DNA of 64,000 bases from Eledone cirrhosa (lineage: Eukaryota), in NCBI GenBank assembly GCA_964016885.1, contig OZ024749.1, forward strand, positions 2,666,001-2,730,000. The letters are read 5' to 3'. Below, in pieces: positions 1,796 through 3,778 of this stretch. The notes below the pieces were generated by a model. It worked only from the letters and a program-made list of their open reading frames with translations, had not been told where the DNA came from and did not search any database. Every line of letters begins with the position of its first letter. The stretch's first letter is position 1. A program made the position numbers and the translations under genes.

Positions 1796-1796
<1 letters not shown>
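1624..1796 (+). mobile_element. Family B fragment, 5'-truncated inside hammerhead stem II
   Basis: TTTGGTACCCTTGAAATATATATAATAGAATAAATATGGTTTTATAAATATAG matches 43607-43658; tail matches 53760-53855 and the reverse of 16460-16545. Confidence 0.75.
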
Positions 1797-1833
<37 letters not shown>

Positions 1834-2006
1834 TATATCCAAGGTATATATTAAGTTAGAAACTCGTCGAGCTAATTCAAATGTCGGGTAGACCCGGCTG
1901 CTATTTTTAGTGGCGTGAGTTTGCGAGACACGCTAACTTCTGATACCATGTGCGTTGTATACAAACACACTATCCAGTTTTTTAAGATACTTAGAAGTGA
2001 CCAGGA

Positions 2007-2106
2007 TACCAATAATTCTTCACCCGCTGATGAGCGAGAATATGGTATTCCTTTTCACAATTAATATTGCGAAACAGTATTATCAAAACTGTCCGGGTGA
2101 TTGGTA
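2007..2106 (+). ncRNA. Type I hammerhead ribozyme (canonical)
   Basis: Stem I TCACCCG/CGGGTGA extended by TACCAA/TTGGTA across a bulge; core CTGATGA 2027-2033; stem II GC..AATAT/ATATTGC; GAAA 2071-2074; stem III ACAGT/ACTGT; GUC triplet 2091-2093. Confidence 0.9.
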
Positions 2107-2649
2107 GTTACCGCAATTATGGTTTGTATTTATTTTCTTGATTTATTCTTAAATTAAGTTTGACAAATCATATTTTCTTTAGTTAGTATTCTTTTCCCCT
2201 TAGCGAATCTGGTCCCCTACGATTTGAGCACATGTACGTATGTATATGTCTGTTTTCGTTTTTCTTTTTGTTCAGTTATATATATATGTATATATATAAT
2301 TGTAAACATTCTAGTTCAAATTAACTCTCAATTAATGTGTAGTTCACTGTGAATTATTTAATGAAACTACACTGTTTGTGCATGCACTATTATATCATCA
2401 CATCATCATCACTCGTCGACTACTGTCGAGATGATGGATCTCACTCTCATGCCCCAGAATTCCCTGTCCCCCATCGCTGCCCCCAGGTCCTGTCTACTGA
2501 TTCCCGTATCCCTAGAGATAACGTCAGGGAATGACAGCTTCCTACTCCTACTATTATATACATTGTAGTGACCAGTTTAGCCAGTTTTGCCGAGTGGTAA
2601 GCTGTATACAGTGGTAGCTAAATACAGATACAGTACAGGATTGAGTGAG

Positions 2650-2785: not shown

Positions 2786-2844
2786 TATATTTCCTTATTT
2801 CCCTGTTGATTAAATTAATGATGATCAGCCGTAATCGATCTTCG

Positions 2845-3778
2845 AGAACCCCTACCGATGCGCTGAACGAGTGTGACTTTTTAGTCCAGCCAGCGACTTG
2901 AAAACTCTGGTACAAACACTACACTTGTGACAATTATTGACACAGTGCTGGGCCCATGATACCATGTGACGACAAGTGCAGAGAGATCTCCAGATATAAA
3001 GCAATGCCTGTGCCGTGAAGCTTTTATAGTGAGCAAAGGCACTGCACAAAGCCAGTCCCTCTCTCTTAACCAAGATGATATTTACCAAAAAGAAGAACAA
3101 GTCAACATCATTGGATACCATCAGGGTTGCAGGTGTTATATCAGAGTTTTCCTTCTTCTAGAATTCTGCCTTGACAAAGGCTAAGGGGTCATCTCTCCCG
3201 GTGATTTTGGATGGCCATTGACTCTTAAGAGCTCCTTTGCCCTTTGACAGGTTTTGTTTTTAGTCCTGCAGGATGTCCAAAGTCACCCTCCTCACCAAGA
3301 AACCTTGGTGGGGTTGCCAGTTTAGTCGCCAACGACCCGACCAAGGGACAGGTTGTACTGGGATACAAAACCTGTCAAAGGGCAAAGGAGCTCTTAAGAT
3401 TCAATGGCCATCCAAAATCACCGGGAGAGATGACCCCTTAGCATTTGTCAAGGCAGAATTCTAGAGAAGGAAAACTCTTATATATGACCTGCAACTCTGA
3501 TGGTATCCAATGATGTTGACTTGTTCTTCTTTTTGGTAAATATCATCTTGGATGAGAGTGGGACTGGCTTTGTGCAGTGCCTTTGCTCACTATAAAAGCT
3601 TCACGGCACAGGCATTGCTTTATATCTGGAGATCTCTCTGCACTTGTCGTCACATGGTATCATGGGCACAGCACTATGTGTCAATAATTGTCACAAGTGT
3701 AGTGTTTGTACCAGAGTTTTCAAGTCGCTGGCTGGACTAAAAAGTCACACTCGTTCAGCCCATCGGTAAGGGTTCTCC
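2845..3778. mobile_element. Head-to-head inverted dimer of a non-autonomous RTE-like retroelement
   Basis: Arms ~2845-3258 and ~3364-3778 are near-identical reverse complements; 3' end encodes [22 protein letters not shown] (C2H2 motif like RTE ORF C-termini); TCTAG(G)AGAAGGAAAACTCTG motif resembles RTE 5' UTRs; other copies at 34300 and 49718. Confidence 0.8.

What the first reader, a model, noticed from the sequence alone, without database searches (positions are those of the whole stretch)
1840..2240. Canonical full-length type I hammerhead with GUC site
Seen: perfect core, 7-bp stem I with a 7-nt bulge and 6 further bp (TACCAA/TTGGTA), and a true 5-bp stem III, inside a unique island of about 400 bp that follows (TA)n. 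Known: a stem I bulge contacting loop II is typical of fast natural hammerheads. Inference: this is the best candidate for an active monomeric ribozyme, cutting after 2093, and may be one retrozyme or pLTR unit.
Basis: partly seen in the sequence, partly recalled or inferred. Interest (0 to 1): 0.75.

Follow-up and report, generated by a model that had tools for sequence, protein, structure and literature searches.

The report
Long-pseudoknot hammerhead in Penelope-like repeat
This is one truncated copy of a common, non-coding ~520-base repeat in an animal genome, likely a jumping element, that carries a complete hammerhead-type RNA motif, likely self-cutting, whose predicted fold is braced by an unusually long extra helix rather than by the bulge first proposed; cutting is untested.

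Summary
The hammerhead is real: full core, 7-bp stem I, 5-bp stem III, GUC site after 2093. First, the island is not unique. It is a 5'-truncated, 5'-inverted copy (1839-2280) of a 518-531-bp non-coding repeat with 786 exact core-pattern matches (control 0). The family shows Penelope-like signs: (TA)n targets, partial tandems, inversions and an optional ~90-nt tail. Second, the bulge plus TACCAA/TTGGTA helix is not the conserved fold. Stem II is only 2 bp. Best reading: a pseudoknot-braced type I hammerhead of a non-autonomous Penelope-like element, probably cutting only part of the time. 5' ends of copies are about 3-fold denser just 3' of the cut site than just 5' of it (p 0.002), which is suggestive only. 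I found no RNA data, no coding partner and no Rfam match. The scan earlier noted a shorter leader/loop II pairing in another genome's Penelope element, but not this family.

The parts
1796..1838 (.). (TA)n microsatellite, left part of the likely target site
   Evidence: family copies sit in (TA)n
1839..1866 (-). short inverted piece of the family's 3' tail abutting the truncated 5' end
   Evidence: reverse complement matches the tail; 65 of 97 sampled copies have such an inverted piece
1861..2280 (+). 5'-truncated copy (~420 of ~520 bp) of the non-coding repeat, ending at the short 3' terminus
1915..1994 (+). possible retained 80-nt spliceosomal intron (GTGAGT...TTAG); inferred, not shown
   Evidence: acceptor AG kept in about 55 of 59 loci, donor GT in about 35 of 59; no intron-less copy in 250 loci; no RNA data
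1997..2019 (+). 5' leader strand of the long helix P (pairs with 2037-2058)
2020..2026 (+). stem I 5' strand (pairs with 2094-2100)
   Evidence: 4 of 7 pairs change on both sides, 93.8% of cells paired
2027..2033 (+). core CUGAUGA
   Evidence: core positions 97.6% majority in 78 copies not selected on the core
2034..2070 (+). 2-bp stem II (2034-2035/2069-2070) with 33-nt loop II: helix P 3' strand 2037-2058, A/U-rich return linker 2059-2068
2071..2093 (+). GAAA, 5-bp stem III with 9-nt loop, GUC; predicted cut after C2093
   Evidence: 3 of 5 stem III pairs change on both sides
2094..2100 (+). stem I 3' strand
   Evidence: 39 versus 9 of 71 copies; U-A 37 / C-G 12 of 58
2277..2298 (.). (TA)n, right part of the likely target site

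Best explanation
The locus is a truncated, partly inverted copy of a ~520-bp non-coding repeat, likely a non-autonomous Penelope-like retroelement, carrying a type I hammerhead motif that is predicted to cut after C2093 and to be braced by a long leader/loop II pseudoknot helix. Shown: the motif, the repeat family, its insertion anatomy and the covariation. Inferred mechanism: (1) a tandem or read-through transcript first folds leader 1997-2019 onto loop II 2037-2058 as a 17-20-bp hairpin; (2) stem III, the 2-bp stem II and the 7-bp stem I then close on that hairpin's loop, so helix P holds stems I and II side by side, as shorter pseudoknots do in phage hammerheads; (3) the distal part of P leaves only a 7-10-nt return linker, so it probably must fray for the core to close, and cutting would be partial; (4) a Penelope-type RT/GIY-YIG protein from another element would nick (TA)n DNA and start cDNA at one of two internal sites ~90 nt apart; (5) most cDNAs pass the cut site (uncut or re-ligated circular template), and a minority would stop just 3' of it (cut template).
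For: Core and stems. 786 versus 0 pattern matches. Core 97.6% versus loop II 86% and loop III 69% majority in 78 copies picked by 3' motifs; 53 of 78 have a full core. Helix P: 9 of 17 pairs with both-side changes, e.g. G-C 22/U-A 14/A-U 5, A-U 40/G-C 12, A-U 26/U-A 23 (58 rows); beats shuffles (z<-2) in 61 of 71 and 58 of 69 unbiased copies; a leader fits its own loop better than other copies' loops in 57 of 71. Penelope-like anatomy: unit 518-531 bp in 7 copies, 24 of 97 copies cross the head-to-tail junction, 65 of 97 have an abutting inversion; two 3' ends; the tail runs into the unit start in about 90 of 100 listed matches. These match published PLE features (PMC8557442 passages; PMC11167929). 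Truncation rate 0.65%/nt at +0..+39 versus 0.22%/nt at -40..-1 (32/4904 versus 9/4068 nt, p 0.0017), same direction in two samples; best change point +2.
Against: No cleavage or expression data. Nested folding of 1995-2115 gives P plus an off-pathway hairpin that captures the stem I 3' strand in this copy, so this copy may be slow or dead; the program cannot score pseudoknots. Copies are related, so covariation counts are inherited changes, not independent events. The truncation signal is a peak followed by a dip: the rate rises again to 0.37-0.54%/nt beyond -100, and a fit over change points -200..+89 on sample 1 chose about -195. RT stalling at the structured domain, or fold-back at the small palindromic hairpin, could give the same pattern; inverted pairs and duplicated loci are not independent. 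No coding partner with this terminal repeat was found. The donor of the possible intron is only partly conserved.
Confidence: 0.68

Rival explanations
1. Helix P is an off-switch, not a brace: the full hairpin pulls the 2-bp stem II apart, and the ribozyme fires only when P is opened (by protein, or by a transcript starting inside the leader).
For: P spans about 20 positions while the return linker is 7 nt in 15 and 10 nt in 32 of 58 copies; by recalled A-form geometry 7 nt cannot span that. P forms first and is stable (-15.5 kcal/mol alone). 54 of 97 copies read through the site. The anole PLE ribozyme needed protein to cut (PMC11167929).
Against: P shares no bases with stem I, stem II or the core, and starts in a fixed register beside both. 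Without P the ribozyme has only a 2-bp stem II and no evident tertiary contact; short stems II go with rate-enhancing pseudoknots in PMC3088659.
Confidence: 0.15
2. A classical non-LTR retrozyme that spreads through an abundant ~520-nt circular RNA, with efficient monomer cutting and re-ligation.
For: Non-coding unit that closes on itself, one hammerhead per unit with a true stem III, some copies pass two cut sites (L012, L030). PLEs were proposed as the retrozyme mobiliser (PMC7229834). Compatible with the best explanation if the template is a circle.
Against: Published animal retrozymes are 150-390-bp tandem repeats from dimers to large multimers; here only 4 of 97 copies extend more than 400 nt 5' of the cut and no array of full units was seen. 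No circle is shown.
Confidence: 0.1
3. One reading: canonical extended type I hammerhead with a 7-nt stem I bulge docking on loop II.
For: The six pairs exist in this copy and form when the leader is cut at 2007.
Against: Not above shuffles in paralogues, broken where the 3' hairpin covaries, probability 0.0 with the natural leader; the bulge is 3-4 nt shorter in most subfamilies.
Confidence: 0.04
4. A catalytically dead relic whose structure is kept only as an RT-binding element.
For: Most copies read through the site; ribozyme mutants did not affect insertion in vitro for the anole PLE.
Against: The catalytic core is the best-kept part across subfamilies while adjacent loops change; 5' ends step down at the cut site.
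Confidence: 0.03

Closest known systems
Hammerheads with a stem I/stem II pseudoknot (Perreault et al. 2011, PMC3088659; passages read, figures not seen)
   Same: Full core, stem II of two pairs, a Watson-Crick helix in place of the loop-bulge contact; said to occur in all three types and in about 40% of hammerheads.
   Different: The helices in the passages read are 4-6 bp; here 17-20 bp with a constrained return linker, in an animal repeat.
Hammerheads in pLTRs of Penelope-like elements (Cervera and de la Pena 2014, PMC4209133, parts 1-2 of 4; Frangieh et al. 2024, PMC11167929, parts 1-2 of 4)
   Same: Type I motif in the terminal repeat, partial tandems, tail from two RT start sites, AT-rich targets; in D. 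virilis an intron ends near helix I.
   Different: Animal PLE motifs are minimal (no or palindromic helix III, long helix II, extra base after A9, dimeric); this one has a 5-bp helix III, 2-bp helix II and no extra base. No ORF.
Non-LTR retrozymes of animals (Cervera and de la Pena 2020, PMC7229834, passages; review PMC7761336, passages)
   Same: Non-coding, AT-rich unit with one type I hammerhead, more-than-unit copies.
   Different: Larger unit (520 versus 150-390 bp), dispersed truncated and inverted copies rather than arrays, no canonical loop 1/loop 2 contact, no circle shown.
PK (RAGATH-1-type) hammerhead (Zhan et al. 2024, PMC11300833, part 1 of 6)
   Same: Pseudoknot built from an upstream element.
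   Different: There a 6-bp pseudoknot from a hairpin loop replaces helix II; here helix II remains (2 bp) and the leader next to stem I pairs with loop II.
Type-SGC permuted hammerheads (Eckert et al. 2023, PMC10085705, passages)
   Same: Helix joining stems I and II.
   Different: This motif has the ordinary type I (CGS) strand order.

Membership tests
Type I hammerhead ribozyme | Core C3 U4 G5 A6 N7 G8 A9, G12 A13 A14 A15, U16 H17 | tested here: met
   criteria from PMC3088659
Type I hammerhead ribozyme | Pairs next to the core in stems I, II, III; stem I open | tested here: met
   G2026-C2094, G2034-C2070, A2074-T2092; covariation in stems I and III
Type I hammerhead ribozyme | Site-specific self-cleavage | not testable with these tools
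   only the indirect 5'-end step
Type I hammerhead ribozyme | Match to an Rfam hammerhead model | tested here: not met
   the long loop II probably explains it (inference)
Canonical metazoan type I hammerhead | 4-bp helix II with short loop contacting a helix I bulge; weak helix III | tested here: not met
   2-bp stem II, loop 29-37 nt in 71 copies, 5-bp stem III; distal stem I unsupported
Minimal PLE hammerhead | No or palindromic helix III, long helix II, extra base after A9 | tested here: not met
   against PMC4209133
Pseudoknotted hammerhead | Covarying helix joining stems I and II, short stem II | tested here: met
Pseudoknotted hammerhead | The helix raises the cleavage rate | not testable with these tools
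   needs disruption and rescue mutants
Penelope-like element (non-autonomous) | Partial tandems and 5'-truncated inverted copies | tested here: met
   24 of 97 cross the unit junction, 65 of 97 have inversions
Penelope-like element (non-autonomous) | Optional 3' tail and microsatellite targets | tested here: met
   two 3' ends ~90 nt apart, tail in about 14 of 43 scorable loci, (TA)n after most; published tails are 30-40 bp
Penelope-like element (non-autonomous) | Retained spliceosomal intron in the pLTR | tested here: inconclusive
   no RNA
Penelope-like element (non-autonomous) | Coding partner sharing the terminal repeat | tested here: inconclusive
   none found in sampled loci or in the PLE family of this window; sampling was partial
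Penelope-like element (autonomous) | RT plus GIY-YIG ORF | tested here: not met
   the unit closes on itself at ~520 bp; no attached ORF
Non-LTR retrozyme | 150-390-bp tandem repeats, dimers to multimers | tested here: not met
   518-531 bp, mostly under one unit
Non-LTR retrozyme | Abundant circular RNA | not testable with these tools
   no RNA run listed

The most novel reading that the evidence does not exclude
A non-coding ribozyme element moved by Penelope machinery, whose hammerhead is tuned by a ~20-bp leader helix acting as brace and brake, so that only some transcripts are cut; the 5' ends of its genomic copies record that cutting in the germ line. It would link retrozymes to Penelope elements and give genomic evidence that a PLE-type hammerhead fires in vivo.
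Probability: 0.3. Interest if true: 0.72.

Novelty: new variant of a known kind. Interest (0 to 1): 0.5.

Why it matters
Hammerheads in Penelope-like repeats are known, but their role is described as unclear (PMC8557442), and no reads ending at the cut site were found for the anole element (PMC11167929). This family offers a full, monomer-type ribozyme with many natural variants, a long covarying helix that Rfam misses, and hundreds of insertions whose 5' ends can be mapped against the cut site. That makes two questions testable: whether the ribozyme cuts the transposition template in vivo, and whether Penelope proteins move non-coding hammerhead repeats. This single locus is only a truncated copy and has no special standing.

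Tried and rejected
Rfam: 0 hits at gathering for the window, two chance non-ribozyme hits at E<=10 for 1840-2290. Expression: no RNA holder listed; three runs of one sample, of unknown kind, were laid as contigs and show only that the family is present; their uneven depth is no copy number. Coding partner: the GIY-YIG PLE family of this window (39,541 candidates, 150 scored, 30 loci) has a different hammerhead-like motif and no similarity to the unit; PLE fragments near some copies look like separate insertions; five short family motifs were absent from the stored, cut supplement of PMC8557442, whose unseen part may hold a partner. A Pfam scan of one such fragment was not obtained, so its clade is open. 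Spliced copies: 7 fuzzy hits in 250 loci, all still intron-containing. No other copy in this window. An ORF starting at the core ATG was dropped by eye: loop II lengths are not in one frame. Literature searches; none listed a paper on this family or on a leader/loop II helix of this length; Lunse et al. 2017 was not held (title only), and subscription papers are not covered.

Full report
Observation. The window comes from a 3.0-Gb, microsatellite-rich genome; an animal, possibly a cephalopod, which is my recollection of such sequence and was not tested. Rfam does not recognise the motif.

The island is a repeat. A DNA search of the own genome gave 2071 candidates; 40 were scored, with full-length hits 88-93% identical. 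A core pattern matched 786 times against 0 for its reversed control. The unit is 518-531 bp in 7 copies, has no attached ORF, and its tail runs back into its own start in about 90 of 100 listed matches (246 in all). Copies end at one of two 3' sites ~90 nt apart, mostly followed by (TA)n. Of 97 copies picked by a 3' motif, 65 have an inverted family piece at the 5' end, 54 extend more than 10 nt past the cut site and 24 cross the head-to-tail junction. Partial tandems, 5' inversions, an optional tail and (TA)n bias are described for Penelope-like elements (PMC8557442 passages), and the tail is explained by two internal RT start sites (PMC11167929). The window copy is an inverted tail piece (1839-1866) plus 1861-2280. 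A possible 80-nt intron (1915-1994) ends 2 nt before the structured leader, recalling the D. virilis intron that ends at helix I; its acceptor is well kept, its donor less so, and splicing is not shown. No coding partner was found.

The leader is complementary to loop II. I compared 71 copies: the window, the first 30 pattern hits, and 40 of the other 70 listed hits, which I picked by eye for diversity. Leader/loop II duplexes averaged -16.2 against -7.0 kcal/mol shuffled (z<-2 in 61 of 71); leader/3'-strand duplexes averaged -7.6 against -7.1 (2 of 71). To avoid selecting on the core I repeated this on copies found by 3' motifs: 78 of 166 span the region, 53 of 78 have a full core, core columns are 97.6% majority against 86% in loop II and 69% in loop III, and in 69 parsable copies the counts were 58 versus 1. 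On a 58-row alignment (13 of 71 left out: 10 near-duplicates, 3 with rearranged leaders), helix P has 9 of 17 pairs with changes on both sides and 82.7% of cells paired; stem I 4 of 7, stem III 3 of 5. A 28-row alignment gave the same picture. These are related sequences, so counts reflect a few inherited events. With the leader from 1995, ViennaRNA gives most P pairs 0.82-1.0 and the distal helix 0.0; stem I is also 0.0 in this nested model, partly because an alternative hairpin captures its 3' strand in this copy.

How it likely works. P shares no base with the core or stems I-III, so it can coexist with them as a pseudoknot. Short stems II with a helix joining stems I and II are common and rate-enhancing in the hammerheads of PMC3088659, where the passages give 4-6 bp. 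Here the helix is three to four times longer. The strand returning from its far end to stem II is 7 nt in 15 and 10 nt in 32 of 58 copies; if only the proximal part pairs it is 17-20 nt. By recalled helix geometry the distal pairs must fray for the core to close, at least in the 7-nt subfamily, so I infer partial cutting. A pure off-switch is the main rival.

Indirect sign of cutting. I mapped the 5' ends of copies relative to the cut site. Sample 1 was 97 motif hits in 90 loci; sample 2 was 69 hits in 65 other loci found with a second motif, leaving out loci already used and one 91-bp tandem array. Ends per nucleotide at risk were 17/2524 and 15/2380 at +0..+39, against 4/2139 and 5/1929 at -40..-1; pooled p 0.0017. 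The best pooled change point within -120..+64 was +2 (interval -18..+11). Junctions near the site were read by eye and are real. Against: the rate recovers beyond -100, a wider fit on sample 1 chose about -195, some ends fall at the palindromic 3' hairpin, and RT stalling at structure could mimic the step. I treat it as suggestive. Most copies read through the site, which fits uncut RNA being the main template, as found in vitro for the anole element, or a re-ligated circle.

Comparison and novelty. It meets the sequence and structure definition of a type I hammerhead, with catalysis untested. It is neither the canonical metazoan form nor the minimal PLE form (PMC4209133), nor the PK form in which helix II is replaced (PMC11300833), nor a permuted type (PMC10085705). 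The element behaves like a non-autonomous Penelope-like repeat and resembles a retrozyme, but fails the retrozyme size and array criteria. Seven searches listed no description of this family or of a helix this long; coverage is limited to open papers, and the PMC8557442 supplement was cut. I had found helix P before consulting the scan's notes; these record a 6-bp leader/loop II pairing in a PLE of another genome and permuted hammerheads in other families of this genome, but nothing on this sequence. Verdict: real, a new structural variant of a known kind; interest 0.5.

Noticed in passing
window 47063-48800: 5'-truncated, broken GIY-YIG Penelope-like element between microsatellites; its family has 39,541 candidates and open frames up to ~780 aa. 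Its 3' region has a hammerhead-like motif with an ~85-nt insert in stem II and a palindromic stem III, and it too has two 3' ends ~100 nt apart.
   Followed up: partly
window 40917-40988 (-), related piece at 1331-1620: Another hammerhead-like repeat with a long loop II, palindromic stem III and a GUA site; its upstream strand may also pair with loop II.
   Followed up: no
window 14998-15160, 16607-16814, 23235-23415, 43586-43722: Four inverted pairs of hammerhead-like cores from other repeat families, typical of Penelope-type 5' inversions.
   Followed up: no
window 40307-40335: Minimal PLE-type hammerhead (extra base after A9, no stem III loop, GUC).
   Followed up: no
window 2844-3777: ~930-bp element with 96%-identical ~410-bp inverted arms; 95-98% identical pieces at 34300-34671 and 49715-50078.
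   Followed up: no
L003, L004, L006, L008, L010, L016-L021, L027: One insertion of the family multiplied as a passenger with shared flanks on four contigs; all carry the same core change at G8, so 11 of the 30 closest loci are not independent.
   Followed up: partly
G000:C1:218613459-218613856 (L279, L280): A 91-bp piece of the family's 3' region repeated five times in tandem.
   Followed up: no
window 17772-34096: About 16 kb of degenerate (TA)n with embedded repeats.
   Followed up: no
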